Positions 19,163 through 55,591 of a stretch of DNA of 64,000 nucleotides are shown here, piece after piece. The position numbers and the translations under genes are program-made. The notes beneath the pieces are model-generated. The model was not told where the DNA came from and ran no database searches. It was given only the letters and a program-made list of their open reading frames with translations. This DNA is from Parcubacteria group bacterium Gr01-1014_8 (GTDB lineage: Bacteria > Patescibacteriota > Minisyncoccia > Phycocordibacterales > UBA2100): positions 256,001-320,000 of the forward strand of contig VMGC01000001.1 of NCBI GenBank assembly GCA_007376385.1, given 5' to 3'. Within the stretch, counting starts at the first letter, position 1. The number at the start of each line of letters is the position of its first letter.

Positions 19163-19191
19163 GCAATGTGAAGCGGTGATATACTTCGGAG

Positions 19192-34126: not shown

Positions 34127-35091
34127 GAACCTCTGTAGAACTCGATGGTCTTTTTCAATCCTTCAGCAAAGGATGTGCGCGGCTTCCAGCCGAGCTGTTT
34201 TTTTGCCTTCGACGAATCGAGGGAGTAACGAACATCGTGTCCGGGTCTGTCAGTTACGTACGTTATCATACGCGAGGCTTTATGAAGCGCGCGAAGCAGT
34301 ATTGTAGTGAGTTTTATATTGGAAAGCTCTGTTGTTCCTCCGAGATTGTATATTTCTCCACTTTTGCCTTTGTGGAACGCGCTATTGATTCCCTCGACAT
34401 TATCTTCGACGTATATCCAATTGCGGATGTTTCTTCCGTTTCCGTAGAGCGGCACCTTTTTATTCGCTAACAGATGAGTGATAAAGAGCGGAATTATCTT
34501 TTCCTCATACTGAAAAGGCCCATAATTGTTCGAAGAGCGCGTGATAACAGTGTCAAGACCAAATGTTTTGTTGTACGCGCGCACGAGCATTTCCGCGCTC
34601 GCCTTTGATGCACTGTACGGACTATTCGGGAACAATCCGTCGTCCTCTTTCGATGAGCGGGCGTGTGGGGCGAGCGAGCCGTATACTTCATCAGTCGAAA
34701 TGTGATGAAAGCGCTTCAGTTGGTATTTTTTCGCCAGTATAAGCAGGTTGTGCGTGCCGATGACATTTGTTTCTATAAAAATGTCGGGGTTCGAAATGCT
34801 GACATCGACGTGGCTCTCGGCCGCAAAGTGAATGATGTGCGTTGGTCTGTATTTCTTGAAAATTCTTTCCATTGTTTTAAGGTCGCGGATGTCAGCTTTT
34901 TCGAACGTGTAATTCGATTCTGATTCGACCTGCACATTCTTAATTCTGCCGGCGTAGGTTAGGGCGTCGACATTGATGAAAAAATACTTCGGGTACTTTC
35001 GCACAGCCCAATTGAGATAATTACTGCCGATGAATCCCGCGCCACCGGTGACAAGAATGCGTTTTGCGAATTTATTTCTTGTGGCGGTCAT
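34123..35091 (-). CDS. rmlB: dTDP-glucose 4,6-dehydratase
   Basis: ILVTGGAGFIGSNYLNWAV…, YSASKASAE catalytic motif; 322 aa. Confidence 0.9.
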   Translation of the reverse strand: MTATRNKFAKRILVTGGAGFIGSNYLNWAVRKYPKYFFINVDALTYAGRIKNVQVESESNYTFEKADIRDLKTMERIFKKYRPTHIIHFAAESHVDVSISNPDIFIETNVIGTHNLLILAKKYQLKRFHHISTDEVYGSLAPHARSSKEDDGLFPNSPYSASKASAEMLVRAYNKTFGLDTVITRSSNNYGPFQYEEKIIPLFITHLLANKKVPLYGNGRNIRNWIYVEDNVEGINSAFHKGKSGEIYNLGGTTELSNIKLTTILLRALHKASRMITYVTDRPGHDVRYSLDSSKAKKQLGWKPRTSFAEGLKKTIEFYRGS

Positions 35092-35839
35092 GTTTCTTTT
35101 TTATGTGATGGGATACGTCTATGAGACTATCTATCGTGCCGATGTCGCTCCACTTCTTTTTTAGGTGTGTAGCTCGCAACTTGCCTTCCTTGATGTATTT
35201 GTTGTTGACGTATGTTATTTCGTATTCACCACGTGCAGACGGTTTTTGGTCCCTCATCTTTTCAAAGACCGTGTTGTCGTATAGGTAGATGCCCGCGACA
35301 GCGAGATCACTCTTTGGTTTTTTCGGCTTTTCTTCGATGCTAAGCACTTCGCCTTCCTTTCCCAAAGTCGCGATGCCAAATCGATGAGGGTCTGGGACTT
35401 TCTTCAAGAAAACCATTGCTCCTTCTGTGAAGTCTCGGATATGCGCGCTAAGGTCGTCTTCAAAATAATTGTCGCCGAGGAAAAGAATGCATGGCTCATC
35501 GCCGACGTAGTCGCGCGCAATATACAGTCCTTGAGCGATTCCTCCTGGTTCGTTTTGGATACCGTAGGCAATTTGTATCTGCGATTCGTCCGTATTACGT
35601 GGCTTCCAATGCTGACCACTGCCAAGCGTGCGGACGAAACTGTCGATATGGTCTGGCGAAGTAACGACCATGATGCGACTGATACCTGCTTCAACCAATT
35701 TTTCTATGGCGTGGTATATGACCGGCTTATCGTACAGGGGGAGGAGATGCTTGTTAGTCGCAAGGGTGAGGGGGCGGAGTCTTGTACCTGAGCCGCCGGC
35801 GAGGATAATAGCCTTCCGTATCTTCATAAGTTTTGCCAT
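35072..35839 (-). CDS. rmlA: Glucose-1-phosphate thymidylyltransferase
   Basis: AIILAGGSGTRLRPLTLATNKHLLPLYDKPVIYHAIEKLVEAGI; overlaps rmlB start by 20 nt. Confidence 0.9.
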   Translation of the reverse strand: MAKLMKIRKAIILAGGSGTRLRPLTLATNKHLLPLYDKPVIYHAIEKLVEAGISRIMVVTSPDHIDSFVRTLGSGQHWKPRNTDESQIQIAYGIQNEPGGIAQGLYIARDYVGDEPCILFLGDNYFEDDLSAHIRDFTEGAMVFLKKVPDPHRFGIATLGKEGEVLSIEEKPKKPKSDLAVAGIYLYDNTVFEKMRDQKPSARGEYEITYVNNKYIKEGKLRATHLKKKWSDIGTIDSLIDVSHHIKKKHDRHKK

Positions 35840-37454: not shown

Positions 37455-38581
37455 ACATTGTATACATCACAAGTGCGCGTATACCGTCAGAACGGGCCTA
37501 TGGCTATGCCATCACCAAACTCTGCGAAGAGTGGGGGAAGGCGGGGCATGATGTGAGGTTGATATTGCCGGAGAGGGAACATGGTCTGCAAGATGACCTG
37601 TTCGAATACTACAAACTCGAGAGGACATTCACCATAGAAAAGATTTCGGCAAGTGACTGGATTGGAAAAAGTCTGTCGACATCGCGCGTTCACTTTGCCC
37701 TCGATCTTCTTGCGTTCGTGATCTCGTTGCGAACAGTACGATTTGATGCGGACACAGCCATCTACACCCGTGAATATCTGCTTGCGCTCACACTTCCGGC
37801 ACGGAATCTTTTTTTGGAAGTGCACACGGTACACAGCAAAGGTTTTTTGTTTCGCCGTGCATTAGGACGGGTGCGCGGGATCGTTGCGATAAGTGAGGGC
37901 GTGAAAAAGGAACTGGTCGCTCTTGGTGTCGCAGAAGAAAAAATTAAGGTTGCTCATGACGGGGTCGATCTGGATCCATTTGCACAGGCTCCGGCGGACA
38001 GAAGCGTCTGGAGGCAGTTTGGTGTCGAGCCGTCACAAAATGTTGTGTTATACGCCGGTCATTTTTACGAGTGGAAAGGAGCCGATACCTTGGCGGTCGC
38101 TGGAAAAATGCTCCCATCTGATGTGCACACGGTCCTAGTAGGAGGTGTAGATAACGAGCTGCGCGACTTTAGAGAGAAATATGCCGCTTCAAATGTGCAC
38201 ATCGCGCCGCATCGATCACGCGCAACGATACCTGTCTTACTGAAAAGCGCGGATGTGCTCGTTCTTCCGAACAGCGCAAAGGCGGAAATCTCGCGCTCAC
38301 ACGCCTCGCCGCTGAAGCTGTTCGAATACATGGCCGCGGGCGTCGCAATTGTTGCGTCCGATGTGCCTAGTCTGCGTGAAGTACTTTCTGAGGATACAGC
38401 TTTTTTCTTTAAGGCCGATGACTCGAATAGTCTCGCGGAGGTTATCGGCCGCGTGCTCAAATTGCCGGACGACGCACATTCCAGAGCTGAACAGGCAAAG
38501 AAAAAGGCGGACACATACACATGGCGTGGTCGCGCTGCCGACATCGCACAATTTCTCGACAGACTGGGGAGCAAGGGATAG
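37451..38581 (+). CDS. Glycosyltransferase family 4
   Basis: MNIVYITSARIPSERAYGYAI… N-terminus, ASPLKLFEYMAAGVAIVASDVPSLREV C-terminal GT4 motif. Confidence 0.8.
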   Translation: MNIVYITSARIPSERAYGYAITKLCEEWGKAGHDVRLILPEREHGLQDDLFEYYKLERTFTIEKISASDWIGKSLSTSRVHFALDLLAFVISLRTVRFDADTAIYTREYLLALTLPARNLFLEVHTVHSKGFLFRRALGRVRGIVAISEGVKKELVALGVAEEKIKVAHDGVDLDPFAQAPADRSVWRQFGVEPSQNVVLYAGHFYEWKGADTLAVAGKMLPSDVHTVLVGGVDNELRDFREKYAASNVHIAPHRSRATIPVLLKSADVLVLPNSAKAEISRSHASPLKLFEYMAAGVAIVASDVPSLREVLSEDTAFFFKADDSNSLAEVIGRVLKLPDDAHSRAEQAKKKADTYTWRGRAADIAQFLDRLGSKG

Positions 38582-38591
38582 CATAGACTTT

Positions 38592-40403
38592 ATGCGGTTT
38601 TTTAGGCGCCTCGGGAATATGTTCCGCCTGCTTCGGCGGGCATATGGTGCATATTCGACGCAAATAGCGGCGCTTGCTGCCCTGGGCTTTTTGGGCGGAT
38701 TGCTTGAAGGCATCGGCATCAATGCGGTTGTCCCGCTTCTGACATTCATTTTTACGGAGTCCGCGCAGGCGTTTGACCCGATCTCGAATATTCTGCGGTC
38801 AGTGTTCACATTCATCGGCATTGATTTCGCCCCCAAATATTTGCTCGCGTTCATCGTGATCATGTTCCTTGCGCGCGCTGCGGTGATGTACGCGCTCTCG
38901 TATATTCAGACGGTCATATCATTCAACTATGAGCGAGATACGCGAGTACGCGTGTTCGAAACCCTCCTGCGTTCTTCGTGGTCGCATCATCTGGCAAGGA
39001 AATTCGGACATCTGGAGACTATCATCATGATAGACGCTCCGGCGAGCACGAATCTTCTCCGCAAGTTGAGCAATCTCATCACGCTCGCGACGGGGCTCAT
39101 AATGTATCTCATTGTGGCGTTCAATATTTCTCCTGCCGTTACATTTCTGACGTTCGCCGTCGGTGTATGCGGGCTCCTTTTCTTCAGATACTTTTTGACG
39201 ATGATTCACGCGAGAAGTTCGGAGCGTGTCGCGCTCAACAAAGAAGTCGCCCACTACATGGGGGAATACGCGGCGGGCGCGAAGGCGATAAAGGCATCCG
39301 GCACTGAGGAGGTTGTCGCGGAAAGCGGTGTGGATCTTTTTTCCCGTTTAAGGAATATTTCTGTAAGCATATCCCTTGTACAGCAGGTAGCCGTACTCAT
39401 TATTCCGCCGGCCGGGATTCTATATATCGCGCTCATATTCGGTGTTGCGTACCGTACTGATTTCATCCAGCTTGCCGCGCTTCCCGCTATTATTTACCTC
39501 ATTTACCGCATCTCGCTGTACGCTCAGCAAGGGCAGGACCACCTGCAGGGTATTCAGGAACTCGTCCCTCATTTGCAGAGCGTGCTCGCGTTCGAGGAGA
39601 AATCGCGACAGAAAGAAGAGCACATCGGCGGAGATAAATTATTCGCCTTCCACAAGGAACTTCGATTTGACGATGTTCATTTTTCCTACGACGACGGTCG
39701 CGAAGCGCTAAAAGGCGTGTCATTTACTGTTAAGGGGCGCTCAACGGTTGGTATTGTCGGTCCTTCCGGTGCAGGGAAGACGACATCGGTCGATTTGATG
39801 CTGAGGCTCTTGGAGCCGACGAACGGGGCGATCACACTCGATGGTGTAAATGTGCGCGATATTTCACTGCAATCATGGCGCGCAAAAACGGGGTATGTAC
39901 CACAAGAACCGTTCCTGTTGCACGATACGATACGGAACAACGTTCTTTTTCAATTTAAAGGAAACGGAGGACAAGACGCGCTTTCCGATGCAGATGTGTG
40001 GCACTTTCTCAAGATGGCGGATGCGGAAGATTTTGTTCGCGCGATGCCGGAGGGGCTCGATTCAATGGTCGGGGACAGAGGCGTAACACTTTCAGCAGGG
40101 CAGAGACAAAGGCTCGTCATTGCGCGTGAGCTTGCTCGAAAGCCGGAACTCCTCATTCTCGACGAGGCGACGAGCGCGCTCGATAGTGAATCAGAGGCGC
40201 GTTTGCAGAAGGTCATCCAGAAACTCAAGGGTTCGGTTACTATCGTCATTATTGCCCATCGTCTCTCGACTATCTTGGAGTCGGATAAGCTTGTTGTTCT
40301 AAAAGAAGGCACGGTAGCTGAGCCAATAGCCAGCCCTGAAGCGATGCTTCGTACCGCCGGCTCGTATTTAAGCCACATTTTCTCGCTGAATAAATCACTA
40401 TGA
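38592..40403 (+). CDS. ABC transporter, fused permease/ATP-binding protein (MsbA/PglK-like exporter, likely glycolipid or lipid-linked glycan flippase)
   Basis: Start trimmed to MRFFRRLGNMF… (just after the upstream GT4 stop); 6 TM region then GPSGAGKTT Walker A, LSAGQRQRLVIAREL signature, ILDEATSALD Walker B. Confidence 0.85.
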   Translation: MRFFRRLGNMFRLLRRAYGAYSTQIAALAALGFLGGLLEGIGINAVVPLLTFIFTESAQAFDPISNILRSVFTFIGIDFAPKYLLAFIVIMFLARAAVMYALSYIQTVISFNYERDTRVRVFETLLRSSWSHHLARKFGHLETIIMIDAPASTNLLRKLSNLITLATGLIMYLIVAFNISPAVTFLTFAVGVCGLLFFRYFLTMIHARSSERVALNKEVAHYMGEYAAGAKAIKASGTEEVVAESGVDLFSRLRNISVSISLVQQVAVLIIPPAGILYIALIFGVAYRTDFIQLAALPAIIYLIYRISLYAQQGQDHLQGIQELVPHLQSVLAFEEKSRQKEEHIGGDKLFAFHKELRFDDVHFSYDDGREALKGVSFTVKGRSTVGIVGPSGAGKTTSVDLMLRLLEPTNGAITLDGVNVRDISLQSWRAKTGYVPQEPFLLHDTIRNNVLFQFKGNGGQDALSDADVWHFLKMADAEDFVRAMPEGLDSMVGDRGVTLSAGQRQRLVIARELARKPELLILDEATSALDSESEARLQKVIQKLKGSVTIVIIAHRLSTILESDKLVVLKEGTVAEPIASPEAMLRTAGSYLSHIFSLNKSL

Positions 40404-41128
40404 AAAAGAGGATAGCTATCATTCAGGCGAGAATGAATTCCTCTAGAATGCCCGGGAAAATTCTGAAGGAGATCTCGGGAAAACCGGCGCTGTGGCATCT
40501 CATAGAGAATATCCGACCCTCGAAACAGCTCACCGATATTATCGTCGCGACCACAATGAATACGGCGGATGACGTGATAGCCGATTTTACGAAGGAGAAT
40601 GCTGTCACCTGTTTCCGCGGAAGCGAGGAAAACGTACTAGAGCGATTTTATGAGGCAGCGAAGTCTATCGGTGTCAAGGATTCTGACATCATCGTACGAA
40701 TTACCGCCGATGATATATTCATGGATCCGTATATCATTGATGCGCTCGTCACTTTTTTTGATTCCACGTATCCATACTATAGATTGGTGTCCAATAGCTT
40801 CAAGCCGGGTTTTCCGTATGGTCTTTATTTCGAGCTATTTGATTTCGCTTCTCTGAAAGATGCTTATCGTAATGCGACCACGGAATCCCAAAAAGAGCAT
40901 GTGACGCCGTACATCCGCGAACACGAGGAAACATTTCCTGCTATAGCAATCGAATCAAAAGGAGTCGATCTTTCGGATGTGTATCTTTCGATTGATACAG
41001 TGGAGGACCTCGAGCGAAATCGCCGCATCATCGAGCGGTTGGAGTCGCAGAATAAAAAACATCCGTATCTCTTTACAGATGTAGTCACCGCATATAAGGA
41101 TTTAAAATTGAGCAGGGCATCTGTATGA
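40400..41128 (+). CDS. Acylneuraminate (CMP-nonulosonate) cytidylyltransferase family protein (SpsF/NeuA/LegF-like)
   Basis: IAIIQARMNSSRMPGKILKEISGKPALWHLIENI N-terminal cytidylyltransferase motif; 242 aa. Confidence 0.8.
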   Translation: MKKRIAIIQARMNSSRMPGKILKEISGKPALWHLIENIRPSKQLTDIIVATTMNTADDVIADFTKENAVTCFRGSEENVLERFYEAAKSIGVKDSDIIVRITADDIFMDPYIIDALVTFFDSTYPYYRLVSNSFKPGFPYGLYFELFDFASLKDAYRNATTESQKEHVTPYIREHEETFPAIAIESKGVDLSDVYLSIDTVEDLERNRRIIERLESQNKKHPYLFTDVVTAYKDLKLSRASV

Positions 41129-42183
41129 GCCCCATTAAAAATAACTCGCCCAAGCCCTCCGGGCGCGCTAGCGCGGGCGCTATTTCTAACGGGGCGAGAA
41201 TTGGCGTTGTGGGAAACGGTTCGATGGGGAGGCGGAGAATAAAACATTCTCAGATGTATGGATATACAGACATCACGGGTTGGGATATTAGGTCGGACAG
41301 GCGAAAGGAGGTCGAATCAAAGTTCGGAATACAAACGGTGAAGAGTCAGAAGGATTTTGAGAACTCAAAGTTCGATGCGCTATTCATTTGTGTGCCTCCG
41401 GCCGAACACTATTACTACATGAAGCTTGCGGTGAAGAACGGTTGGAATTTTATGGTGGAGAATCCAGTGTGGCATAAGGTGAAGGGACTCGATGTGCTTC
41501 AAAGGGAAGTGAAGAAGAAAAAACTGGTGGCGAACGTCAGTTGCAACGTCAGGTTCCTGAAAGCGACGCAGAGGATAAAGCAGCTTGTTCGAGATGATGT
41601 CATTGGACCGATATTGTCGGGCGTAGCCGAAGTCGGCGAATATTTGCCTGATTGGCATCCGTACGAACCGTATACCGATTACTATCCGTCCAAAAAAGAA
41701 ATGGGCGGCGGTATCGACGCGATGTGTGATCTCGACTGGCTTGTCGATATTTTCGGCGATATCCGCAGGATGAACTGTGTGTATTCGAAAAAGTCGAGCC
41801 TAAAAATCAATACCTATGACATCATTGATTTCATTCTAGAGTTCAAGTTAGGACCGCAGATAGTTCTGCATACCGACATGCTTCAATCGCCGTACGGCAG
41901 AGCGGTGAAGCTCATAAGTGAGCGCGGTGTTATCGTGTGGGAATACAAAGAACAGATAGTAAAATATTATGATCGTCGAACCAAGAAGTGGACAAAGTTC
42001 GACGAATCGGGTTCGAGAGTTAATTTCGACAATAACATCACGACGACATGGGCTGAGCAGATGTATATGGACGATTCATTTCACTTCTTCAAGTGTCTGA
42101 AAGGCGAGGCGAAGCCGCTTAACACTATAGAAAGCAATTCGAAACTTCTGAAACAGCTTCTCAAAGCCATCGACTACGCCTGA
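41125..42183 (+). CDS. Gfo/Idh/MocA-like NAD(P)-dependent oxidoreductase (PtmF-like)
   Basis: N-terminal Rossmann ARIGVVGNGSMGRRRIKH and Gfo/Idh/MocA-like layout; 352 aa. Confidence 0.55.
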   Translation: MSPIKNNSPKPSGRASAGAISNGARIGVVGNGSMGRRRIKHSQMYGYTDITGWDIRSDRRKEVESKFGIQTVKSQKDFENSKFDALFICVPPAEHYYYMKLAVKNGWNFMVENPVWHKVKGLDVLQREVKKKKLVANVSCNVRFLKATQRIKQLVRDDVIGPILSGVAEVGEYLPDWHPYEPYTDYYPSKKEMGGGIDAMCDLDWLVDIFGDIRRMNCVYSKKSSLKINTYDIIDFILEFKLGPQIVLHTDMLQSPYGRAVKLISERGVIVWEYKEQIVKYYDRRTKKWTKFDESGSRVNFDNNITTTWAEQMYMDDSFHFFKCLKGEAKPLNTIESNSKLLKQLLKAIDYA

Positions 42184-42184
42184 T

Positions 42185-43606
42185 ATGAGGATACTTGTCG
42201 TATATCCGAGGGCAGTGCCGGAGATAGAGATATTTTTTAATGACCTCAAACAAGCGGGGCACGAAATCGTCTATTGGGTCGGGGAACATAGCGGAGAGAA
42301 GAACACCCCTAAAGGCGCGATATTTCACGATCACTATGATGCGTGGGACGGCAAATCGGCTGAAGTATTCAAGAACGTCACATTCCCGCCCGCTTCTTCA
42401 GAGTTGGTAGAAAGATTGTACCGTACAGAGTCAGTTGTGCTTTCTATGATGGATAAGCATTACGATTCGGCGCCCGTGAATGAGCGAAAGCATATCTATT
42501 ATTCGATGTTGTCCTACTGGTCGGGAGTGTTGGATATGCTCAAGCCCGATGCGGTCGTCTTCGCTATAGTTCCTCACACGGTATACAACTACATTCTTTA
42601 TGAGCTCGCGCGTCTGCGCGGCCTTTTTACGCCGTGCTTTGAAGATACGTATGTTGCGTCACGCCTTTTATTTTATAAGAATTTCTGGGAAGGAAGTGAG
42701 GAACTACGTGATGCGCTCGGGCGTGCGTCCGATGCGAAGCTATCCGACTTGTCCGGAGATTTAGCGGCATATTTGAAACGATTTAAAGAGACCGAGGCAC
42801 AGCCGGCGTATATGGCCCAGCAAAAAAGACTGGGCGCGGGTTGGGGGCTCTTTCGCCACAGAGTCAGGATAGCGCGCGCTGGTCTGCTTTCCGGGAGGAC
42901 GTTCGTACTCGCGTGGAGATTTTTCAAGCGGTTGTTTGTCAGAAATCTTGCACACGAATATAGAGGAGTCGTGTCTGCGCCGGACATGTCACGGCCATAT
43001 GTATATTTTCCTCTCAATATGCAGCCCGAGCGCTCAACCTCGCCGCAGGGCGGTGTTTTTCAGGATCAGATCCTCGTTGCGGAAACAGTTGCCGCATCGT
43101 TGCCTGATGGCTGGATGCTTGTGATAAAAGAACATCCTTCGCAGTGGTGGTTGCGTGGGAAAACGCGTTACTCGAGCGCACGCTACCGCGGCTATTATCA
43201 GCGTCTTGCGCGTATACCGAACACGGTTCTCGTAGATACATTCACCAACACGTTCGAGTTGACGCGCGGTGCGCGGGCTGTCGCCGTCGTAACCGGAACT
43301 CCGGGGTGGGAAGCGATTCTGCGCAGTATTCCCGTGATCGTGTTCGGATACCCGTGGTATCGGGATTGCCCCGGAACTCTGCGAGTAGAAAATGTGGATG
43401 AGTGCAGGGTAGCGCTTGCGAGAATCGAGTCCGGGGGTCTAAAGCTGACTACTGACGGCGTGATTGCTTTTTTGAAAGCGCTTGACGCTGTGTCAGTACG
43501 TGCTTTTATTCACGATCTGATCGGGCAGACCGAACATATGAGTGAAGCGGAATCCTTTCGAAATATTGCTCTGAAGCTGAACACAGAACTCCGCGCGAAT
43601 ACATAA
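42185..43606 (+). CDS. Capsule_synth (KpsS/LpsZ)-like GT-B protein with HP motif; putative CMP-ulosonic-acid glycosyltransferase; paralog of 57971..59467
   Basis: VIKEHPSQWW … VAVVTGTPGWEAILRSIPVIVFGYPWY; collinear similarity to the ORF at 57971 (VKEHPGMTPY … VTVISGTPGWEAALLKKPVITFGHVFY). Confidence 0.55.
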   Translation: MRILVVYPRAVPEIEIFFNDLKQAGHEIVYWVGEHSGEKNTPKGAIFHDHYDAWDGKSAEVFKNVTFPPASSELVERLYRTESVVLSMMDKHYDSAPVNERKHIYYSMLSYWSGVLDMLKPDAVVFAIVPHTVYNYILYELARLRGLFTPCFEDTYVASRLLFYKNFWEGSEELRDALGRASDAKLSDLSGDLAAYLKRFKETEAQPAYMAQQKRLGAGWGLFRHRVRIARAGLLSGRTFVLAWRFFKRLFVRNLAHEYRGVVSAPDMSRPYVYFPLNMQPERSTSPQGGVFQDQILVAETVAASLPDGWMLVIKEHPSQWWLRGKTRYSSARYRGYYQRLARIPNTVLVDTFTNTFELTRGARAVAVVTGTPGWEAILRSIPVIVFGYPWYRDCPGTLRVENVDECRVALARIESGGLKLTTDGVIAFLKALDAVSVRAFIHDLIGQTEHMSEAESFRNIALKLNTELRANT

Positions 43607-43608
43607 CT

Positions 43609-44589
43609 ATGCGGGCATCATCGAACAAACAATCAGCTGCGTTGGAAAAAGCAGCTCTTTCCAAAAAGAAGGCGAGACGATCGCCTGACAAGAAGGACAG
43701 GGAGATAGCGGAAGAAATTCTGCGAATTCACTCAAAACTCAAGAAGGTTTTTATGGCCGACGGCGAGTGGAAGTGGATCAATGAGAACAAAAAAAAGAAT
43801 TATATAAAAGCGTTGCGCGATAACAATCCGGATGCTCTCGCGGCGATACTCGCAAATCTTTTTCAGGAAGACGCTTCCTACGGATTTTACACATACGAGA
43901 CAGATTCATTACAGGCGGGTATACGTGCCGACCTTGCCGTATGGAACGAATTCGTGGAGCAGAATGACATATCCCCGCTCTCGATGCCTGATGTGGGGAA
44001 TCCGCACGGTATTGTGGTCGGGGGAGTGCTCGTTGCGCCTTTCCAGCCGCGCCATGATTATTGCGCTCAGAAGATACATTCTCTCGGTCCGAAAACCGTT
44101 CTCGAAATAGGAGGCGGATACGGCGGGCTGGCGCTTCAATTGTCACGACGTTCGAATGTTAAATATATAGACTGCGATTTGCCGGAAACTCTGTATGTCG
44201 CGTACTACTTTCTCAAAAAAGCGGGATTAAACGTGAAATGGGCCATAGATACATGGCCGGATGCCCCGATTGTTCTTGTTCCTGCGAATCGAAAGAAGTT
44301 AATTCAAAAGGCAGATCTGGTGTTTAACGGCCTTTCCTTTTCCGAGATGGGAAGAGAAACGGTCGACGGGTATTTCAAATTCATAAACAACGTATGGAAG
44401 CCCCGATATATTTTTCATCAGAACAGCAACATCCTTCTTTTTCCCAATTCACCGCGGCATATCGAAGTTCTCGCGAGGGATTTTCCCATAGGTAAAATCT
44501 ATCGCGAGATCTATCGTGCAATTTCTCCATGGCAGGGAGGCAGTGGCAGGTATCGTGAGTATCTCTACGAGAGGAATCTCGAACGTTGA
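43609..44589 (+). CDS. Putative SAM-dependent methyltransferase
   Basis: VLEIGGGYGGLALQL glycine-rich motif I; 326 aa. Confidence 0.45.
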   Translation: MRASSNKQSAALEKAALSKKKARRSPDKKDREIAEEILRIHSKLKKVFMADGEWKWINENKKKNYIKALRDNNPDALAAILANLFQEDASYGFYTYETDSLQAGIRADLAVWNEFVEQNDISPLSMPDVGNPHGIVVGGVLVAPFQPRHDYCAQKIHSLGPKTVLEIGGGYGGLALQLSRRSNVKYIDCDLPETLYVAYYFLKKAGLNVKWAIDTWPDAPIVLVPANRKKLIQKADLVFNGLSFSEMGRETVDGYFKFINNVWKPRYIFHQNSNILLFPNSPRHIEVLARDFPIGKIYREIYRAISPWQGGSGRYREYLYERNLER

Positions 44590-44858: not shown

Positions 44859-45632
44859 ATGTATCGTAAGAATTCGTATGCACTTACAGAGAGCGTAGCG
44901 TTCATTACAGGTGCTCTCGGCCAGATCGGACGGGAGATAGTCATGCGATTCTTGGAAGACGGCGCGTTTGTCTATATCGCCGACAAAGGGAAAAAGATCA
45001 GTGACGATCTCGCAAAAAAACTGAAGCGCGCGAAATTTGATAACTACCGGTACGTCACGATTGACGTGACGAGCGAGGAGTCGATACGAGCCGTGTATAG
45101 GAAACTGACGCGTCCCGTTGATGTACTTGTCAATTGTGCCGGCATTGGCGTATATACGTCGTTTGAGTCGCGAACTTCCGACGAACTCGATACCGTGTAC
45201 GCGGTAAACCTTAAGGGCACTATCCTGTGCTCCAAGATATTTTCAGCAGGCATGATGAAGAGGAAAGGGGGTCGGATCATCAATATCGGTTCTATATACG
45301 GGATTACAACGCCGGATTTTTCAATGTACGGCGATTCCGGTAGGAATTCTTCTGAGATCTACGGCGCGACGAAAGCCGGCATTATCCAGACGACGAAATA
45401 TCTTGCGGCATACCTTGCGCCGCACAATATTCTGGTGAACTGCGTAAGTCCAGGCGGCGTCTTTAATCGCCAGAAATCCTTTTTCGTCAGACGATATAAA
45501 AAGAGGACGCCGCTTCAGCGAATGGCGGCGCCAGACGATCTTACGGGTGTTATCGCGTTTCTCGCTTCGGATGAGGCGGCGTATATCACGGGACAGAATA
45601 TCGCGGTCGACGGAGGCTTTACGATATGGTGA
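44859..45632 (+). CDS. Short-chain dehydrogenase/reductase (SDR), PtmA-like
   Basis: ITGALGQIGREIV Rossmann motif, YGATKAGIIQ catalytic YxxxK; 257 aa. Confidence 0.85.
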   Translation: MYRKNSYALTESVAFITGALGQIGREIVMRFLEDGAFVYIADKGKKISDDLAKKLKRAKFDNYRYVTIDVTSEESIRAVYRKLTRPVDVLVNCAGIGVYTSFESRTSDELDTVYAVNLKGTILCSKIFSAGMMKRKGGRIINIGSIYGITTPDFSMYGDSGRNSSEIYGATKAGIIQTTKYLAAYLAPHNILVNCVSPGGVFNRQKSFFVRRYKKRTPLQRMAAPDDLTGVIAFLASDEAAYITGQNIAVDGGFTIW

Positions 45633-48028
45633 AGAAAGCCCGTAAAAAAGTATATGTGCTTGGAGCGGGAATGAGCGGGCTTGCGACCGCACTTCGGCTT
45701 GCAGAGCTCGGCGTCGATACAACCCTCGTTGAAAAAGAAAAGAAGGTCGGCGGACTCGCGGGAAGTTTCAAATGGCGCGATTTCAAGAATCTTGATTACG
45801 GACCGCATATCTACCACACACCCGACAAGAAACTGGAAGAGATATGGAAGAAGGAGTACGGCGATCTGTTCCATCAAAATGAGTTCTGGGGAAAGAACGT
45901 TAAAGGTGAGAAGTTCGACCGGTATTTTGACTACCCACTGTCATTCGAATCACTAAAAAAATTTCCTTCTGACGTGAGAAAAAAGATCATGCATGAACTG
46001 TCTCATCTCGACGAGACAAAGCTCGCAAAGGCGAAAAGTTATGCCGATTACGTACGGGAACTCGTCGGTCCCACGCTGATGGAGTATTTTTTTATCCGTT
46101 ACCCTCAAAAATTATGGGGGGTTTCCATAGATAAGATGACGGCAAACTGGGCCCCCAAGCGTGTTACATTCAGGACGAAAGACGAACATTTTCATGCAGG
46201 TCAATGGAGCGCGGTCGGGAAATACGGGTCAGGCAGGATACTGGAGAGAATGGCCGATAGATTCAAAAAAAAAGGTGGCACACTTATGCTCGGGAGTCCC
46301 GTCATGGCGATCGAGCACTCAAACGGCATCATCAAGAACATCGTACTTGACGAAAAGAAAATCAGACTTTCGTCCGACGATGCGGTTGTTTCGACGATAC
46401 CGATACCTGTCATGGCCGAGTATCTTGGCGTTAGAAATACCTTGAAATATCGTGGAGCGAAAATTGTATTTGTCGCGCTCAACAAGGAAGAGGCAATCCC
46501 CGACAAGTTCAATTTTCTTTACTACGATGCACCGGAAATAATTTTTCATCGGGTGAGTGAGCAGAAGAAATTCTGCGCGCTTGGGTTTCCAAAGAACAAA
46601 ACTGTGCTTTCGTGTGAGATCGCATACACAAAAGGGGACACGCTGGATACAACCGACGAGAAAGAGATACTGGATCGAGCTGTGAGCAGTCTCATACGTG
46701 TCGGGCTCGCCAAAAAAAATGAGGTTGAGGATGCGATGATGGTCTCCCTTCCGTACGTGTACCCTCTCTTGGTTCGCGGAAGCGAACACGAACTCGTTGA
46801 TGTGCGCGGACGTCTCGGCGCATTCAAGCAGCTCTATTGCATCGGCACCGGGGGCGATTTCCGGTACGATGACCTGCAGATACTCAATTTACGAGGGTTT
46901 GATCTCGCTGAGCGGCTTGCGTCACCTGAACTGGACGAAGATGCGGGAGAAGCTGTCAAAAAAGATTTTACGACCGGCTTTAACAACACGTTCGCGCTCG
47001 GCCGCCATACAGTTTCTGAATCCGCGCCCGCGTTCATCATTGCCGAGATCGGGCTCAACCATAACGGGAGCATGAAGCTCGCTATGGAGCTTATCGATAG
47101 GGCGGTTGAGTGCGGTTGTTCGGCCGTGAAGTTTCAGACGTACAGCGCGGGGAACAGAGTGTCGAAGGAAGTGAAGGGCAATCGATACGCCGAGAAGCTT
47201 GTAGATATGGAAGAAACAACATTCGATATGCTCAAGCGTCTGGAATTCACTACGAAAGATCACGTGCGCCTGTTTGCGTACGCCAAGCAAAAAGGAATCG
47301 AGATCTTTTCAACACCGTTCGACTTTGAAAGCGTCGATCTTCTGGAATCCCTCGGGTGCGACTTCTATAAGATTTCGTCGATGGATCTTGTGAATCTGCC
47401 GTTGATACAAAAAGTCGCAAGGACAGGGAAGCCGATGATCGTTTCGACGGGAATGTCAACGCTCGGTCAGGTCGAGGATGCCGTCAATACCATCCGGGAA
47501 ACCGGCAATAAAAATCTTGTCCTCCTGCACTGCGTCTCAATGTATCCCGCGGCGGCACAGGACGTAAACATGGCAGTTATGGGAACTCTACGGCGGGCAT
47601 TCGGAACGCCAGTCGGTTTTTCCGATCACACTATCGGTCTTTCGGCCGCGACTGTTGCGCTCGCACTCGGCGCACGTGTCATCGAACGGCACTTTACTCT
47701 CGATAGATTTATGGAGGGGCCCGATCACATTCTGTCGTCTGACCCGGATGAAATGAGAGAGCTTGTGCGTCTCAGTCATCTTATTCCCGTCATCATGGGA
47801 AAGCCAGAGAAAGTAATTCTTCCGAGCGAAACGGAAACCGTCAATAGGTTCAAGAAATGTCTGTACGCACGGAAAGACATACGTCGGGGCCAGAAAATAA
47901 CAATGGATGCGCTTGCCATAAAGGGTCCGGGAGGAGGGATATTGCCGAAATATGCCAACGTTATTGTCGGGAGGACGGCTCGAAACAGTATCAAGAGGGA
48001 TCACCCCATCCAGTGGGGCGATGTATGA
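45626..48028 (+). CDS. Fusion protein: N-terminal FAD-dependent UDP-galactopyranose-mutase-like flavoenzyme plus C-terminal NeuB-type nonulosonic acid (sialic/legionaminic/pseudaminic) synthase with SAF domain
   Basis: N-terminus KVYVLGAGMSGLATALRLAELGVDTTLVEKEKKVGGLAGSF…YGPHIYHT (UGM-like dinucleotide fold). From ~residue 450 FIIAEIGLNHNGSMKLAMELIDRAVECGCSAVKFQTY…, KISSMDLVNLPLIQ…, C-terminal SAF-like domain; 800 aa in one frame. Confidence 0.75.
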   Translation: MVKKARKKVYVLGAGMSGLATALRLAELGVDTTLVEKEKKVGGLAGSFKWRDFKNLDYGPHIYHTPDKKLEEIWKKEYGDLFHQNEFWGKNVKGEKFDRYFDYPLSFESLKKFPSDVRKKIMHELSHLDETKLAKAKSYADYVRELVGPTLMEYFFIRYPQKLWGVSIDKMTANWAPKRVTFRTKDEHFHAGQWSAVGKYGSGRILERMADRFKKKGGTLMLGSPVMAIEHSNGIIKNIVLDEKKIRLSSDDAVVSTIPIPVMAEYLGVRNTLKYRGAKIVFVALNKEEAIPDKFNFLYYDAPEIIFHRVSEQKKFCALGFPKNKTVLSCEIAYTKGDTLDTTDEKEILDRAVSSLIRVGLAKKNEVEDAMMVSLPYVYPLLVRGSEHELVDVRGRLGAFKQLYCIGTGGDFRYDDLQILNLRGFDLAERLASPELDEDAGEAVKKDFTTGFNNTFALGRHTVSESAPAFIIAEIGLNHNGSMKLAMELIDRAVECGCSAVKFQTYSAGNRVSKEVKGNRYAEKLVDMEETTFDMLKRLEFTTKDHVRLFAYAKQKGIEIFSTPFDFESVDLLESLGCDFYKISSMDLVNLPLIQKVARTGKPMIVSTGMSTLGQVEDAVNTIRETGNKNLVLLHCVSMYPAAAQDVNMAVMGTLRRAFGTPVGFSDHTIGLSAATVALALGARVIERHFTLDRFMEGPDHILSSDPDEMRELVRLSHLIPVIMGKPEKVILPSETETVNRFKKCLYARKDIRRGQKITMDALAIKGPGGGILPKYANVIVGRTARNSIKRDHPIQWGDV

Positions 48029-49065
48029 AGAGTCCCGTCATAGAGAATATTTTACGAAAGATACGCGCCGGTTCCAAACGCCGCGCGACAGGCTTTGTCA
48101 TCGGAAACACCTCCGGAGTTTTCAAACAAGGCCGATTGTATCCGATTCCTATCCGGGAGACGGGTACACTCATTTACGGCGGTGTGATCGTTCGTGATGT
48201 CGCTACCGCCGGAGCTGTCGCGCGCATGATAGACGGCAAGACGGACTACGTATTTGTTGATGCGGAAAAGAAGATCGAGACAATGTATCATGGTAAAAAC
48301 GATGTCGGCAACATCGAGCGGATGGTTCGCGGCGTCATATTGAAATCGAAGATAATTACCTACAAAGGCAACGACCTGACAAAAGACGCAATCGACTTTC
48401 TTCTCGGTCAGCTTATCGTTGATATTGGCGGAACGACTGTCGCCGTGATCGGATGCGGGAATCTCGGTGCAAAAATAGCGCTTAAATTGGTGGAGCGAGG
48501 AGCTCATGTCCGTGCGTACCGGAGGGACAAAGGGAAGCTGCGGAAAATTGTGACGGGTCTCAATCAGATAAAATCAGAACACACGCTTTCGTCCATCTGG
48601 GCGGCGCGGAGTATAGCGGATGCGTGTAAAGGTGCGAGCGCAGTTATCGCAACAGCAGACAGCCAGGGCATTATCAAACACGATCATTTGAAATTCATGA
48701 ATATCGCCCGCCCGCCCATCCTGATCGATGCGGGAAAAGGCTGTTTTTCGGATGATGTAGTGAGAAGTGATGCATACGCCATATACCGTGCCGATGTGTC
48801 CATCGCGCAAAAGCATATTTTTTCGGCGCTTCTTGAGACGAAATTACACTATGGGCGATCGATAGGACGGCGCGTGCTCGAGGATGGCAATGTGGGCCTC
48901 GTGTCGCTCGGGCTCCTTGGAAAAAAAGGGGAGGTCATCGTGGATGATATTGATTCCCCGCGGCGCATTATCGGTGTCGCTGACGGGAGGGGCAAGTTGA
49001 TGAAGAATGTCGGGAGTCAGAAGAAAGTTGTTGAGAAAATACGGCGCATGTTTAATGCATCATAA
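48025..49065 (+). CDS. NAD(P)-binding Rossmann-fold protein of uncertain function (shikimate/saccharopine-dehydrogenase-like fold)
   Basis: Start trimmed to MKSPVIENIL (ATGA overlap with upstream stop); VAVIGCGNLGAKIALKLVERGAHV dinucleotide motif. Confidence 0.45.
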   Translation: MKSPVIENILRKIRAGSKRRATGFVIGNTSGVFKQGRLYPIPIRETGTLIYGGVIVRDVATAGAVARMIDGKTDYVFVDAEKKIETMYHGKNDVGNIERMVRGVILKSKIITYKGNDLTKDAIDFLLGQLIVDIGGTTVAVIGCGNLGAKIALKLVERGAHVRAYRRDKGKLRKIVTGLNQIKSEHTLSSIWAARSIADACKGASAVIATADSQGIIKHDHLKFMNIARPPILIDAGKGCFSDDVVRSDAYAIYRADVSIAQKHIFSALLETKLHYGRSIGRRVLEDGNVGLVSLGLLGKKGEVIVDDIDSPRRIIGVADGRGKLMKNVGSQKKVVEKIRRMFNAS

Positions 49066-49874: not shown

Positions 49875-51221
49875 ATGACGATGAAAAAGACTCCGGCTGA
49901 CAGATTGCAGGGGAAGGGGCAGAAGCTCTGGAAGAAGGCCAAGACGCTCATACCTGGCGGGAACCAACTTCTTTCCAAGCGGGCGGAGATGTTTCTGCCG
50001 GATAACTGGCCCGCGTACTATTCGAAAGCGAGCGGTCCGTACGTTTGGGATCTCGATGGCCGCCGGTACATGGATGTCGGCAGTATGGCCGTCGGTAGCT
50101 GCCTTCTCGGCTATGCTGACAAAGATGTGAATAAGGCAGTGAAAGAAGCAGTTGATCGCGGTTCGATGTCCACTCTGAACGCACCCGAAGAAGTTGAGCT
50201 GGCGGAACTGCTCTGCAAGATCCATCCGTGGGCGGACATGGTGCGCTACGCGAGAGGGGGAGGCGAGAGCATGGCAATAGCTGAGCGTATCGCGCGCGCT
50301 TACACAGGACGCGACATTATTCTGTTCTGCGGATATCACGGCTGGTCGGACTGGTATCTGGCCGCGAATCTCTCATCGGATAAGGCGCTCGACGGGCACT
50401 TATTGCCGGGACTCGAGCCACGCGGCGTTCCGCGGGGGCTTGCGGGCACAATAGTACCGTTCCACTATAACAACATTGATGAGCTCGAAGCTCTTGCAAA
50501 GAAATACGGAAAGAAAGTAGCCGCAATCGTTATGGAGCCCGTGCGCAGCGAACCGCCGGAAAATAATTTTCTAAAGAAAGTGCGAAGGATGGCCGACAGG
50601 CTCGGTGCCGTTCTTGTATTCGACGAGATATCCATCGGGTGGAAACTGACATACGGAGGGGCGCATCTCCTGTATGGAGTCAACCCCGACATTGCGGTAT
50701 TCAGCAAGGCGATGAGTAATGGTTTTCCTATGGCGGCAGTGATTGGCCGAAGGGAAGTGATGCAGGCGGCGCAAAGCTCGTTCATCTCAAGTACCTATTG
50801 GACCGACAGAACAGGCCCAAGTGCGGCGCTCGCGACGCTGAAGAAAATGAAACGAGTAAATGTCACACAGCATATCAGCCGCATAGCGCGTATCACGCGT
50901 GCCGGGTGGGTGCGCCTGGCAAAGAAGCACGGACTTTCTATCGCCATCGGGTGGTCCCTGCCGTACAGTTCGTTCACGTTTACTGACCAGAAAGATACTC
51001 TTGCCCTCAAGACGCTTTTTAATCAGGAGATGCTGCGGCGTGGTTTTCTCGCTACAACGGCGTTCACTCCGTCAGCGACACATACACCGCAACACATTCG
51101 GCAGTATCTAAAAGCGGTGGACGAAGTTTTCGGCATACTTGCGGACGCGCTCAAAAAGGGGGACGTGAAGAAGCGTCTCCAAGGCCCTCCGGTCCATTCG
51201 CATTTTCAGCGTCTGAACTGA
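49875..51221 (+). CDS. Class III aminotransferase (glutamate-1-semialdehyde 2,1-aminomutase-like)
   Basis: 448 aa; LIPGGNQLLSKR…GPYVWDLDGRRYMD…VFDEISIGW…; PLP fold type I class III. Confidence 0.75.
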   Translation: MTMKKTPADRLQGKGQKLWKKAKTLIPGGNQLLSKRAEMFLPDNWPAYYSKASGPYVWDLDGRRYMDVGSMAVGSCLLGYADKDVNKAVKEAVDRGSMSTLNAPEEVELAELLCKIHPWADMVRYARGGGESMAIAERIARAYTGRDIILFCGYHGWSDWYLAANLSSDKALDGHLLPGLEPRGVPRGLAGTIVPFHYNNIDELEALAKKYGKKVAAIVMEPVRSEPPENNFLKKVRRMADRLGAVLVFDEISIGWKLTYGGAHLLYGVNPDIAVFSKAMSNGFPMAAVIGRREVMQAAQSSFISSTYWTDRTGPSAALATLKKMKRVNVTQHISRIARITRAGWVRLAKKHGLSIAIGWSLPYSSFTFTDQKDTLALKTLFNQEMLRRGFLATTAFTPSATHTPQHIRQYLKAVDEVFGILADALKKGDVKKRLQGPPVHSHFQRLN

Positions 51222-51303
51222 TAGCGTGCGTTGTTTTTTCGGTGTCGACTCCCAACTTGTTTTCGTTGACCCGCCGGCGAAGAGGCGTTACAGTGGGGCG
51301 CTC

Positions 51304-53423: not shown

Positions 53424-53479
53424 TTACTCATGGGAGCGGGCTATAGTGGGGTGATAATGTGTGGAAGGGACACAATCGT

Positions 53480-54391: not shown

Positions 54392-54396
54392 GTGAG

Positions 54397-55565: not shown

Positions 55566-55591
55566 AAGGAAGCCGTGATAGCATCGCCATA

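What the first reader, a model, noticed from the sequence alone, without database searches (positions are those of the whole stretch)
45626..48028. Single 800-aa ORF fusing a UGM-like FAD enzyme to a NeuB-type nonulosonic acid synthase
The N-terminal ~450 residues carry a classic FAD dinucleotide motif (VLGAGMSGLATALRLAELG…VEKEKKVGGL) and the YGPHIYHT block. Both resemble UDP-galactopyranose mutase or related flavin sugar-modifying enzymes. The C-terminal ~350 residues are an unmistakable NeuB/PseI/LegI-type synthase (IIAEIGLNHNGS, TIM barrel plus SAF domain). A stand-alone PseI-like synthase exists 8 kb downstream, so this fusion is the second synthase. I do not know of a characterised example that couples a flavoenzyme to a nonulosonate synthase. 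It could channel a ring-contracted or oxidised hexosamine into the condensation with PEP, or modify the product.
Basis: partly seen in the sequence, partly recalled or inferred. Interest (0 to 1): 0.65.

Follow-up and report, generated by a model that had tools for sequence, protein, structure and literature searches.

The report
Flavin sugar-mutase fused to nonulosonate synthase
A single 800-residue protein joins a UDP-galactopyranose-mutase-like flavoenzyme to a sialic-acid-type synthase; the fusion is real, is conserved from CPR bacteria to SAR11, always travels with an unknown NAD(P)-binding partner, and probably marks an undescribed route to a sialic-acid-like sugar.

Summary
Window 45626-48028 (+) is one 800-aa ORF with an N-terminal FAD domain and a C-terminal NeuB+SAF synthase. 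It is not an assembly artefact. More than 120 protein clusters (46-76% identity) and 69 of 69 intact close relatives in reference genomes carry both halves in one frame, joined by a linker of constant length. Hosts include CPR, Nitrospirota, Elusimicrobia, Omnitrophota, SAR11/SAR116/SAR86, two archaeal MAGs and cultured Arcobacter and Rheinheimera.

The fusion is the core of a conserved cassette: SDR, fusion, a novel ~350-aa NAD(P)-binding protein (38 of 40 fully flanked loci; fused on in one protein) and a cytidylyltransferase. A NeuC/LegG-type gene is nearly always absent.

My best reading is inferred, not shown. The flavin domain removes the nucleotide from an NDP-(6-deoxy)hexose and hands the sugar to the NeuB domain, which makes a new CMP-activated ulosonic acid. 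No publication describing the fusion was found.

The parts
45626..48028 (+). Fusion gene, 800 aa: UGM-family flavoenzyme domain joined to a NeuB-family ulosonic acid synthase
45626..46930 (+). N-domain (aa 1-435): FAD-binding, UGM fold. Key residues are GxGxxG 13-18, GPH61xxH64, Y159, W164, R179, Y299, R309, E331, Y379, Y414 and D416.
46931..47020 (+). Inter-domain linker (about aa 436-465), variable in sequence and nearly constant in length across the family
   Evidence: pLDDT below 50 for aa 437-450
47021..47857 (+). NeuB TIM-barrel domain (aa 466-744). E474, K502, Q504, K582, S585, S607, H635 and H668 correspond to the PEP and metal residues of NmNeuB.
47858..48025 (+). SAF (antifreeze-like) domain (aa 745-800), with invariant G767 where NmNeuB has Arg314
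48025..49065 (+). Partner gene, 346 aa: an uncharacterised NAD(P)-binding protein (GxGNxG 143-148, R166-R167). Its start overlaps the fusion's stop codon (ATGA).
   Evidence: co-occurrence; fused to the C-terminus in P0143
49071..49835 (+). CTP_transf_3 cytidylyltransferase (KdsB/NeuA-like), the likely CMP-activating step
   Evidence: found downstream in 29 of 61 loci by BLAST from the window gene
44859..45632 (+). PtmA/PRK09186-like short-chain dehydrogenase. Its stop overlaps the fusion's ATG by 7 nt.
   Evidence: the SDR cluster occurs in 40 loci, usually adjacent upstream
49875..51221 (+). Class-III (GSA-aminomutase-like) aminotransferase, a frequent accessory gene
   Evidence: the cluster occurs in 20 loci
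38349..40403 (+). ABC transporter (transmembrane plus ATPase domains). In many other genomes it lies directly upstream of the fusion.
40400..44589 (+). Accessory genes between the transporter and the SDR: a second CTP_transf_3, a GFO/MocA oxidoreductase, a Capsule_synth (KpsC/S-like) putative ulosonic-acid transferase and a NanM-like sugar O-methyltransferase
   Evidence: conserved in the closest CPR loci
34126..35839 (-). Glucose-1-phosphate nucleotidyltransferase and NDP-hexose 4,6-dehydratase, a candidate source of the NDP-6-deoxyhexose substrate

Best explanation
The gene encodes a bifunctional enzyme at the centre of an uncharacterised pathway to a CMP-activated 3-deoxy-2-ulosonic acid, a sialic-acid-like sugar for a surface glycan.

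Step 1 (fold and residues shown, chemistry inferred). The N-domain is a UGM-family flavoenzyme. It binds a nucleotide-diphospho-sugar, most likely an NDP-6-deoxyhexose made by the nearby nucleotidyltransferase, 4,6-dehydratase and reductase genes. As in UGM, the reduced flavin N5 attacks the anomeric carbon and expels the nucleotide. This gives a covalent flavin-sugar adduct that ring-opens to an iminium.

Step 2 (inferred). Instead of, or in addition to, re-closing to a furanose and recapturing the nucleotide, the adduct is hydrolysed. The sugar is then released as a free, acyclic or readily opening aldose next to the fused NeuB domain. The flavin domain would thus do the job that NeuC, LegG or PseG do in the three known pathways.

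Step 3 (domain and catalytic residues shown, substrate unknown). The NeuB domain condenses the aldose with phosphoenolpyruvate on its metal site to give a nine-carbon ulosonic acid. This would be a 9-deoxy sugar if the precursor is a 6-deoxyhexose.

Step 4 (inferred from gene order only). The NAD(P)-dependent partner and the SDR, together with aminotransferases in many genomes, tailor the product or its precursor. The CTP_transf_3 enzyme then makes the CMP-sugar, and a KpsC/S-like transferase uses it.
For: The fusion is real and ancient. More than 120 clusters share the architecture, as do 69 of 69 intact close relatives across more than 15 phyla, and the linker length is constant.

The published UGM active-site positions (PMC3322874) map onto invariant residues. 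This was checked against E. coli Glf by MAFFT. Both arginines essential for binding the beta-phosphate are kept (R179, R309), as are the His loop (H61, H64), Y159, W164, E331, Y379, Y414 and D416, and the eukaryote-type Tyr299.

The NeuB PEP and metal residues are invariant.

The closest stand-alone relatives sit in the order nucleotidyltransferase, dehydratase, reductase, UGM-like, glycosyltransferase, or between GT2 genes. The ancestral role is therefore an NDP-sugar mutase feeding a downstream consumer, and in the fusion clade that consumer is NeuB.

NDP-hexose-forming genes lie near the fusion in about half of the loci, mostly upstream: 16 of 40 and 19 of 40 (Arcobacter operon).

A NeuC/LegG-type Epimerase_2 gene lies within 8 kb in only 1 of 40 fully flanked loci and nowhere in the 64-kb window.

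The cassette of fusion, partner and cytidylyltransferase recurs. One protein fuses all three modules, UGM-like, NeuB and partner.

FADH2-dependent UGM-family mutases that use nucleotides other than UDP and 6-deoxyhexoses are established (PMC12369002).
Against: No biochemical data exist. The substrate, the nucleotide and the product are all unknown.

Hydrolytic release from a UGM-type flavin adduct has no characterised precedent that I know of.

One arginine conserved in all five characterised UGMs in the published table (Kp R343, Ec R340) is Thr or Asn here, so the flavin chemistry may differ.

The absence of NeuC/LegG is negative evidence limited to 8 kb either side, and PseG-type hydrolases were not searched for across the loci.

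NDP-hexose genes are nearby in only about half of the loci.

The relative orientation of the two active sites could not be examined, because no full-length model was made and the tools give no coordinates.

The role of the partner, the most conserved neighbour, is not explained by this scheme beyond 'tailoring'.
Confidence: 0.45

Rival explanations
1. The N-domain is an ordinary pyranose-to-furanose mutase. Its NDP-furanose product is used by a separate glycosyltransferase for another residue of the same glycan. The fusion to NeuB serves only co-expression or stoichiometry, with no substrate hand-over.
For: The full UGM-type nucleotide-sugar site is retained. Stand-alone relatives clearly feed glycosyltransferases. 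The loci are rich in glycosyltransferases.
Against: The fusion is maintained in 69 of 69 intact relatives across bacteria and archaea, with a linker of fixed length. Two metabolically unrelated enzymes would be expected to separate repeatedly. No glycosyltransferase is among the strictly conserved neighbours.
Confidence: 0.17
2. The flavin domain acts after the synthase, on the ulosonic acid or its CMP-derivative. It might, for example, perform a ring contraction at the ketosidic carbon, with the carboxylate standing in for the second phosphate. This would make a furanosidic or otherwise rearranged ulosonic acid donor.
For: One UGM arginine is replaced, which could reflect a monophosphate-carboxylate ligand. 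The cytidylyltransferase is close by.
Against: Both arginines and the three tyrosines that bind the diphosphate in UGMs are invariant. Attack at a quaternary anomeric carbon has no precedent. The recurrent fusions link the flavin domain to the synthase and the partner, whereas the cytidylyltransferase is fused to a second NeuB-like domain instead.
Confidence: 0.12
3. The N-domain is a redox flavoenzyme of the amine-oxidase, PPO or desaturase type. It would oxidise an amino or hydroxyl group of the precursor or the product.
For: The best Pfam E-value is for Amino_oxidase (1e-16). Foldseek interleaves PPOs with UGMs (TM 0.73-0.75 against 0.78). The always-present NAD(P) partner and the SDR suggest redox steps.
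Confidence: 0.1
4. The flavin domain is catalytically silent. It serves as a nucleotide-sugar-sensing regulatory domain, or as an oligomerisation domain, for the synthase.
For: Loss of the universally conserved UGM arginine. Feedback control by nucleotide sugars is common in sialic acid pathways (general knowledge).
Against: Roughly 60 invariant positions in the N-domain, including the His loop above the flavin N5 and the whole FAD motif set, are more than a binding module would need.
Confidence: 0.05

Closest known systems
UDP-galactopyranose mutase (Glf/UGM; E. coli, K. pneumoniae, D. radiodurans, A. fumigatus, T. cruzi)
   Different: Identity is only 17-19%, and it scores 60 bits on the Glf equivalog model against a cut-off of 304. 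The arginine conserved in all five characterised UGMs tabulated in PMC3322874 (Kp R343) is Thr. It is covalently fused to a synthase rather than feeding a galactofuranosyltransferase. Its substrate is unknown.
Pyranose/furanose mutases for other nucleotide sugars: CDP-6-deoxyhexose mutase HS41.17 of C. jejuni HS:41 (PMC12369002), dTDP-fucopyranose mutase Fcf2 and UDP-GalNAc mutase UNGM
   Same: They belong to the same FADH2-dependent family. The gene context is the same, following a nucleotidyltransferase, a 4,6-dehydratase and a reductase, as seen upstream of many fusion genes and of the closest stand-alone relative.
   Different: Those enzymes are stand-alone proteins of about 370-400 aa whose products go to glycosyltransferases. 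None is linked to a PEP-condensing enzyme.
Nonulosonic acid synthases NeuB, LegI and PseI (N. meningitidis NeuB structure 1XUZ)
   Same: The TIM barrel plus SAF domain is shared (E 1e-54 to NmNeuB). The metal histidines and the PEP-binding Lys and Ser residues are invariant.
   Different: It scores below both equivalog cut-offs (NeuB/LegI-type 375 against 399.65; PseI 303 against 340). The SAF-domain arginine that contacts the substrate's N-acetyl group is an invariant glycine. It carries a 465-residue N-terminal extension.
Nucleotide-releasing enzymes of the known pathways: hydrolysing 2-epimerases NeuC and LegG, and the UDP-sugar hydrolase PseG
   Same: The proposed functional position is the same: freeing the hexose from its nucleotide immediately before the synthase. 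The genes for NeuC/LegG-type enzymes are almost always missing near the fusion (1 of 40 loci).
   Different: The fold and the chemistry are entirely different (GT-B-type hydrolases and epimerases against a flavoenzyme). The equivalence is an inference, not a result.
Adapter-enzyme fusions in sialic acid pathways: Leptospira NeuB-phosphatase and mammalian GNE epimerase-kinase (PMC3438082)
   Same: A step that precedes or follows the synthase is fused into the same reading frame.
   Different: The fused module there is a phosphatase or a kinase. A flavoenzyme fusion partner has not been described.

Membership tests
UDP-galactopyranose mutase family (Pfam GLF PF03275; UGM fold) | FAD-binding Rossmann motif (GxGxxG, acidic residue at the end of beta-2) and the C-terminal flavin motif | tested here: met
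   G13-A-G15-x-x-G18, E36 and G42-G43 are invariant, and GTGGxFxYxD is present at 407-416
UDP-galactopyranose mutase family (Pfam GLF PF03275; UGM fold) | Three-domain UGM fold, closer to UGM than to other two-dinucleotide-binding-domain flavoproteins | tested here: met
UDP-galactopyranose mutase family (Pfam GLF PF03275; UGM fold) | Match to the family's sequence model | tested here: met
   Pfam GLF scores 33.5 bits against a gathering score of 26.3. The PDB profile search puts UGMs on top, E 6e-22.
UDP-galactopyranose mutase family (Pfam GLF PF03275; UGM fold) | The two arginines essential for diphosphate binding and catalysis (Kp R174 and R280) | tested here: met
   R179 and R309 are invariant in 19 of 19 and 49 of 49 sequences
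UDP-galactopyranose mutase family (Pfam GLF PF03275; UGM fold) | His loop over the flavin N5 (Kp H60/H63) and the Tyr/Trp set (Y155, W160, Y314, Y349, D351) | tested here: met
   H61, H64, Y159, W164, Y379, Y414 and D416 are all invariant
UDP-galactopyranose mutase family (Pfam GLF PF03275; UGM fold) | The third arginine, conserved in all five characterised UGMs tabulated in PMC3322874 (Kp R343, Ec R340, Af R447) | tested here: not met
   T408 (Thr in 17 of 19, Asn in 1, Gly in 1)
Glf orthologues (UDP-galactopyranose mutase proper, TIGR00031) | Score above the equivalog cut-off | tested here: not met
   60.1 bits against a cut-off of 303.75. The protein is therefore not filed as Glf.
UDP-galactopyranose mutase family (Pfam GLF PF03275; UGM fold) | Reduced-flavin-dependent pyranose/furanose interconversion of an NDP-sugar | not testable with these tools
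   This needs an enzyme assay.
NeuB-family ulosonic acid synthases (PF03102 plus SAF) | NeuB TIM barrel followed by a SAF domain | tested here: met
   NeuB E 8e-90 at 489-727 and SAF E 8e-9 at 745-800. NmNeuB matches at E 1e-54.
NeuB-family ulosonic acid synthases (PF03102 plus SAF) | Metal-binding histidines (Nm H215, H236) and PEP-binding residues (E25, K53, K129, S132, S154) | tested here: met
   H635 is His in 40 of 49 and Gln in 9 of 49; Gln also occurs in the window's true PseI. H668, E474, K502, K582, S585 and S607 are invariant.
N-acetylneuraminate/legionaminate synthase (TIGR03569) or pseudaminate synthase (TIGR03586) | Score above the equivalog cut-off, i.e. assignable substrate specificity | tested here: not met
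   375.2 against 399.65, and 302.8 against 340.25
N-acetylneuraminate/legionaminate synthase (TIGR03569) or pseudaminate synthase (TIGR03586) | SAF-domain arginine reaching the sugar's acetamido group (Nm R314) | tested here: not met
   G767 is invariant in 49 of 49, whereas the window's PseI keeps Arg

The most novel reading that the evidence does not exclude
This would be a fourth, flavin-dependent entry into nonulosonic acid biosynthesis. A UGM-type covalent flavin-sugar iminium is used not to contract the ring but to strip the nucleotide from an NDP-6-deoxyhexose. It then presents the acyclic sugar directly to a fused NeuB domain. Together with a structurally novel NAD(P)-dependent partner, this yields a previously unrecognised class of 9-deoxy ulosonic acids. 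The pathway would be widespread in SAR11, SAR86, SAR116, CPR bacteria, Nitrospirota and some archaea.
Probability: 0.25. Interest if true: 0.85.

Novelty: new variant of a known kind. Interest (0 to 1): 0.68.

Why it matters
Nonulosonic acids (sialic, legionaminic and pseudaminic acids) decorate flagella, pili, S-layers and capsules. All three characterised pathways free the hexose from its nucleotide with a NeuC/LegG-type or PseG-type enzyme.

This locus shows a widely distributed module built differently, and none of its members has been studied. It occurs in 213 relatives among species-representative genomes, including the most abundant marine bacteria and many CPR lineages.

If the flavin domain really supplies the synthase, that would be a new use of UGM-type covalent flavin catalysis and probably a new family of surface sugars. 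This bears on phage and host recognition in SAR11 and in episymbiotic CPR bacteria.

The question can be tested directly, because cultured carriers exist (Arcobacter iocasae KX21116 and Rheinheimera sp. YQF-1). It also corrects automatic annotations, which currently name these proteins either 'N-acetylneuraminate synthase' or 'FAD-dependent oxidoreductase'.

Tried and rejected
1. Frameshift or assembly artefact: rejected.

4. Eight literature searches found no description of the fusion. One apparent hit (PMC12102941) was irrelevant, and one query was badly chosen and wasted.

5. A GDP-heptose origin, which would give a 10-carbon product, was considered because GHMP kinase and nucleotidyltransferase genes sit beside the fusion in some loci. 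These occur in only 7 of 40 and 5 of 40 fully flanked loci, so this was not adopted as the general case.

6. Apparently unfused close relatives proved to be contig-end fragments or disrupted genes (P0125, L043, L046, L073, L076, L077).

7. A look-up of the gammaproteobacterial homolog P0104 found no contig on record.
Full report
OBSERVATION

Window 45626-48028 (+) is a single ATG-initiated ORF of 800 codons. Pfam places NAD_binding_8, Amino_oxidase and GLF matches in residues 11-356. It places NeuB at 489-727 (E 8e-90) and SAF at 745-800. NCBIfam gives 375 bits on the NeuB/NnaB equivalog (cut-off 399.65) and 303 bits on PseI (cut-off 340). For the N-half it gives 175 bits on the uncharacterised PRK07208 model, but only 60 bits on the Glf equivalog (cut-off 304) and 24 bits on protoporphyrinogen oxidase (cut-off 98). 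Window 55592-56641 is a bona fide PseI at 475 bits.

IS THE FUSION REAL?

Yes. The identical protein is on a 408-kb contig of 'Parcubacteria group bacterium Gr01-1014_8'. The 120 best-scoring clusters are almost all 780-841 aa, 46-76% identical, and carry both domain sets. They come from CPR lineages, Anaerolineales, Elusimicrobia, Gammaproteobacteria, Thermodesulfobacteriota and Omnitrophota.

In an alignment of 49 of them, the inter-domain linker varies in sequence but hardly in length.

A scan of one genome per species with N-domain motifs found 213 relatives. Of the 79 loci retrieved, all 69 intact close relatives (33% identity or more) have the NeuB part in the same ORF. The exceptions are contig-end fragments, two disrupted genes, and distant stand-alone homologs at 25-27% identity.

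Hosts include Nitrospiraceae, Terriglobia, Planctomycetes, Zetaproteobacteria, SAR11 (including a complete Pelagibacterales chromosome), SAR116, SAR86, a Prochlorococcus single-cell genome, and Nitrososphaerales and Methanosarcinales MAGs. Cultured carriers are Arcobacter iocasae KX21116 and Rheinheimera sp. YQF-1.

WHAT THE N-DOMAIN IS

A profile of 19 N-domains searched against all PDB sequences lists only UDP-galactopyranose mutases at the top. These are T. cruzi (E 6e-22, aligned over residues 6-416), K. pneumoniae (5e-20) and A. fumigatus (1e-18). Protoporphyrinogen oxidase appears only at 3e-8, and amine oxidases match nothing beyond the dinucleotide motif.

I mapped the published table of UGM active-site residues (PMC3322874) onto the family in two ways: by hand from the HMMER alignment, and independently by adding E. 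coli Glf to the alignment with MAFFT. The two mappings agree.

- Ec H56 and H59 correspond to H61 and H64.
- Y151 corresponds to Y159, and W156 to W164.
- R170 corresponds to R179, and R278 to R309.
- E298 corresponds to E331, and Y311 to Y379.
- Y346 corresponds to Y414, and D348 to D416.

All of these are invariant in the fusion family. The two arginines are the ones whose alanine mutants are inactive in K. pneumoniae UGM and which hold the beta-phosphate.

As in eukaryotic UGMs, the tyrosine that contacts the alpha-phosphate comes from the Kp N270 position (Y299) rather than from Y185 (F189 here).

One residue conserved in all five characterised UGMs in the published table (Kp R343) is Thr in this family.

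The domain therefore belongs to the UGM family and keeps a nucleotide-diphospho-sugar site. It is not a Glf orthologue.

WHAT THE C-DOMAIN IS

It is a NeuB-family synthase, E 1e-54 to N. meningitidis NeuB. The equivalents of E25, K53, Q55, K129, S132, S154 and H236 are invariant. The H215 equivalent is His in 40 of 49 sequences and Gln in 9 of 49, and Gln is also found in the window's true PseI.

The SAF-domain arginine (Nm R314) is kept in the window's PseI but is an invariant glycine in the fusion family. Together with the sub-threshold equivalog scores, this argues for a sugar substrate different from those of NeuB, LegI and PseI.

CONTEXT

The fusion is the core of a conserved cassette. 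In the window, the PtmA-like SDR (44859-45632) overlaps the fusion's start by 7 nt. The fusion's stop overlaps the start of a 346-aa NAD(P)-binding protein (48025-49065) as ATGA. A CTP_transf_3 cytidylyltransferase follows at 49071, and a class-III aminotransferase at 49875.

Three unrelated metagenomic contigs show the order ABC transporter, fusion, partner, cytidylyltransferase.

Unsupervised clustering of all neighbouring ORFs in the 79 genome loci gave these results:

- The partner family is in 61 loci, always on the same strand, with a median gap of -4 nt.
- The SDR is in 40 loci, mostly adjacent upstream.
- An epimerase/dehydratase family is in 40 loci.
- The ABC transporter is in 32 loci.
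- DegT aminotransferases are in 28 loci.
- Sugar-1-phosphate nucleotidyltransferases are in 23 loci.
- Cytidylyltransferases are in 22 loci, plus a further set fused to a degenerate NeuB-like domain.
- Class-III aminotransferases are in 20 loci.

Of the 40 loci with 8 kb or more on both sides, 38 contain the partner.

One protein of 1141 aa (P0143) fuses UGM-like, NeuB and partner in that order (E 9e-19 to the window's partner).

WHERE THE DOMAIN CAME FROM

An exhaustive profile search of 1.8 billion representatives found 1191 proteins at E 1e-30 or better. Above about 300 bits almost all are fusions of about 800 aa. Below that lies a large family of stand-alone proteins of 420-480 aa, and a few of these are fused to GtrA.

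Two of the closest stand-alone members lie in polysaccharide loci. One sits between GT2 glycosyltransferases. The other, in the complete genome CP015106.1, follows the order nucleotidyltransferase, 4,6-dehydratase, reductase, UGM-like, GT2, GT1. That is the layout of known NDP-6-deoxyhexose pyranose/furanose mutase pathways, for which FADH2-dependent CDP-sugar mutases are established (PMC12369002).

Around the fusion, a nucleotidyltransferase occurs within 8 kb in 16 of 40 loci and a 4,6-dehydratase-like gene in 19 of 40, mostly upstream. In the cultured Arcobacter the operon reads RmlA-like, dehydratase, aminotransferase, SDR, fusion, partner, methyltransferase, cytidylyltransferase.

By contrast, a NeuC/LegG-type Epimerase_2 gene is within 8 kb in only 1 of 40 loci. 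It is absent from the whole window, where I also found no PseG model hit.

MECHANISM

Shown:
- a two-domain protein with an intact UGM-type NDP-sugar and FAD site and an intact NeuB PEP and metal site;
- obligatory association with an NAD(P)-binding protein;
- frequent association with a cytidylyltransferase, an SDR, aminotransferases and NDP-hexose-forming enzymes;
- near-absence of the usual nucleotide-releasing enzyme.

Inferred: the flavin domain attacks C1 of an NDP-(6-deoxy)hexose and expels the nucleotide as UGM does. The sugar then passes, after hydrolysis of the flavin adduct or via a labile furanose form, to the NeuB domain for condensation with PEP. The product is tailored and CMP-activated.

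I give the general scheme (N-domain acts on the NDP-sugar precursor of the NeuB reaction) about 0.45, and the specific nucleotide-stripping mechanism about 0.25. The rivals are an independent mutase, action on the ulosonic acid or CMP-sugar, a redox flavoenzyme, and a regulatory domain. They are listed with their evidence. None is excluded by computation alone.

NOVELTY

Both domains belong to well-known families, and the fused proteins are already in public databases under generic automatic names. I found no description of the architecture, the cassette or the partner in eight full-text searches. The nearest precedents are other 'adapter' fusions in sialic acid pathways (PMC3438082).

I therefore rate it a new variant of a known kind, with a real chance that it represents new pathway logic. 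It is of above-average interest because it is strictly conserved, very widespread (including SAR11 and CPR), and directly testable in cultured carriers.

Noticed in passing
window 51226-57963: The pseudaminic acid sub-cluster contains PseB-like, PseC-like, aldo/keto reductase, GNAT and a true PseI (55592-56641), but no recognisable PseG. Two ORFs without any Pfam or NCBIfam hit (54846-55565, 239 aa; 56638-57963, 441 aa) flank PseI and might fill that role. The PseI has Gln where NmNeuB has the metal ligand His215.
   Followed up: partly
L001 13472-15223, and about 13 other loci (e.g. L019, L028-L031, L036, L044, L048, L052, L069, L082): Directly after the partner gene, many genomes encode a protein of about 583 aa that fuses a degenerate NeuB-like domain to a CTP_transf_3 cytidylyltransferase. 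The first metal histidine is replaced, and EIG and NH become EIA and GH. It may be a substrate-binding module for the CMP-activating step.
   Followed up: partly
P0143 (1141 aa, metagenomic protein): This is a triple fusion, UGM-like then NeuB then NAD(P)-binding partner, in the same order as the separate genes elsewhere.
   Followed up: yes
window 25543-27513: A 656-aa ORF combines a GT4 glycosyltransferase (Glyco_transf_4 plus Glycos_transf_1) with the N-terminal and central domains of a UDP-glucose/GDP-mannose dehydrogenase. This is either an unusual fusion or a merged gene pair.
   Followed up: no
window 47857-49065: The mechanical ORF for the partner is 402 aa and overlaps the last 172 nt of the fusion gene. 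Homologs of 340-365 aa and the ATGA overlap indicate that the real start is the ATG at 48025.
   Followed up: yes
L002 7644-10004: The ABC transporter directly upstream of the fusion carries an N-terminal HAD/PNK3P-like phosphatase domain. The same locus has a GHMP kinase and a NUDIX gene, suggesting a sugar-phosphate or heptose branch in some genomes.
   Followed up: no
P0204 and P0263: Stand-alone PRK07208/UGM-like flavoproteins are fused at the C-terminus to a GtrA/DPMS transmembrane domain. This is another uncharacterised architecture of the same flavoenzyme family.
   Followed up: no
window 21900-63800: At least 42 kb of this CPR genome is one glycan-biosynthesis island. It holds two ulosonic acid synthases, three CTP_transf_3 genes, two KpsC/S-like (Capsule_synth) proteins, at least seven GT4 glycosyltransferases, a sugar C-methyltransferase and three DegT aminotransferases. 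That is a large investment if, as is typical of CPR bacteria, the genome is small (its size was not determined here; the contig is 408 kb).
   Followed up: partly
window 30993-32164: An RmlD-like reductase appears split into two overlapping ORFs (30993-31721 matches only the N-terminal half of RmlD_sub_bind; 31625-32164 follows in another frame). This could be a frameshifted pseudogene or a sequencing error.
   Followed up: no
window 17010-21764: Just upstream of the glycan island lie a DUF4015 putative glycosyl hydrolase, a TrwB/TraG-like coupling ATPase (19192-20820) and a lamin-tail-domain protein (20817-21764).
   Followed up: no
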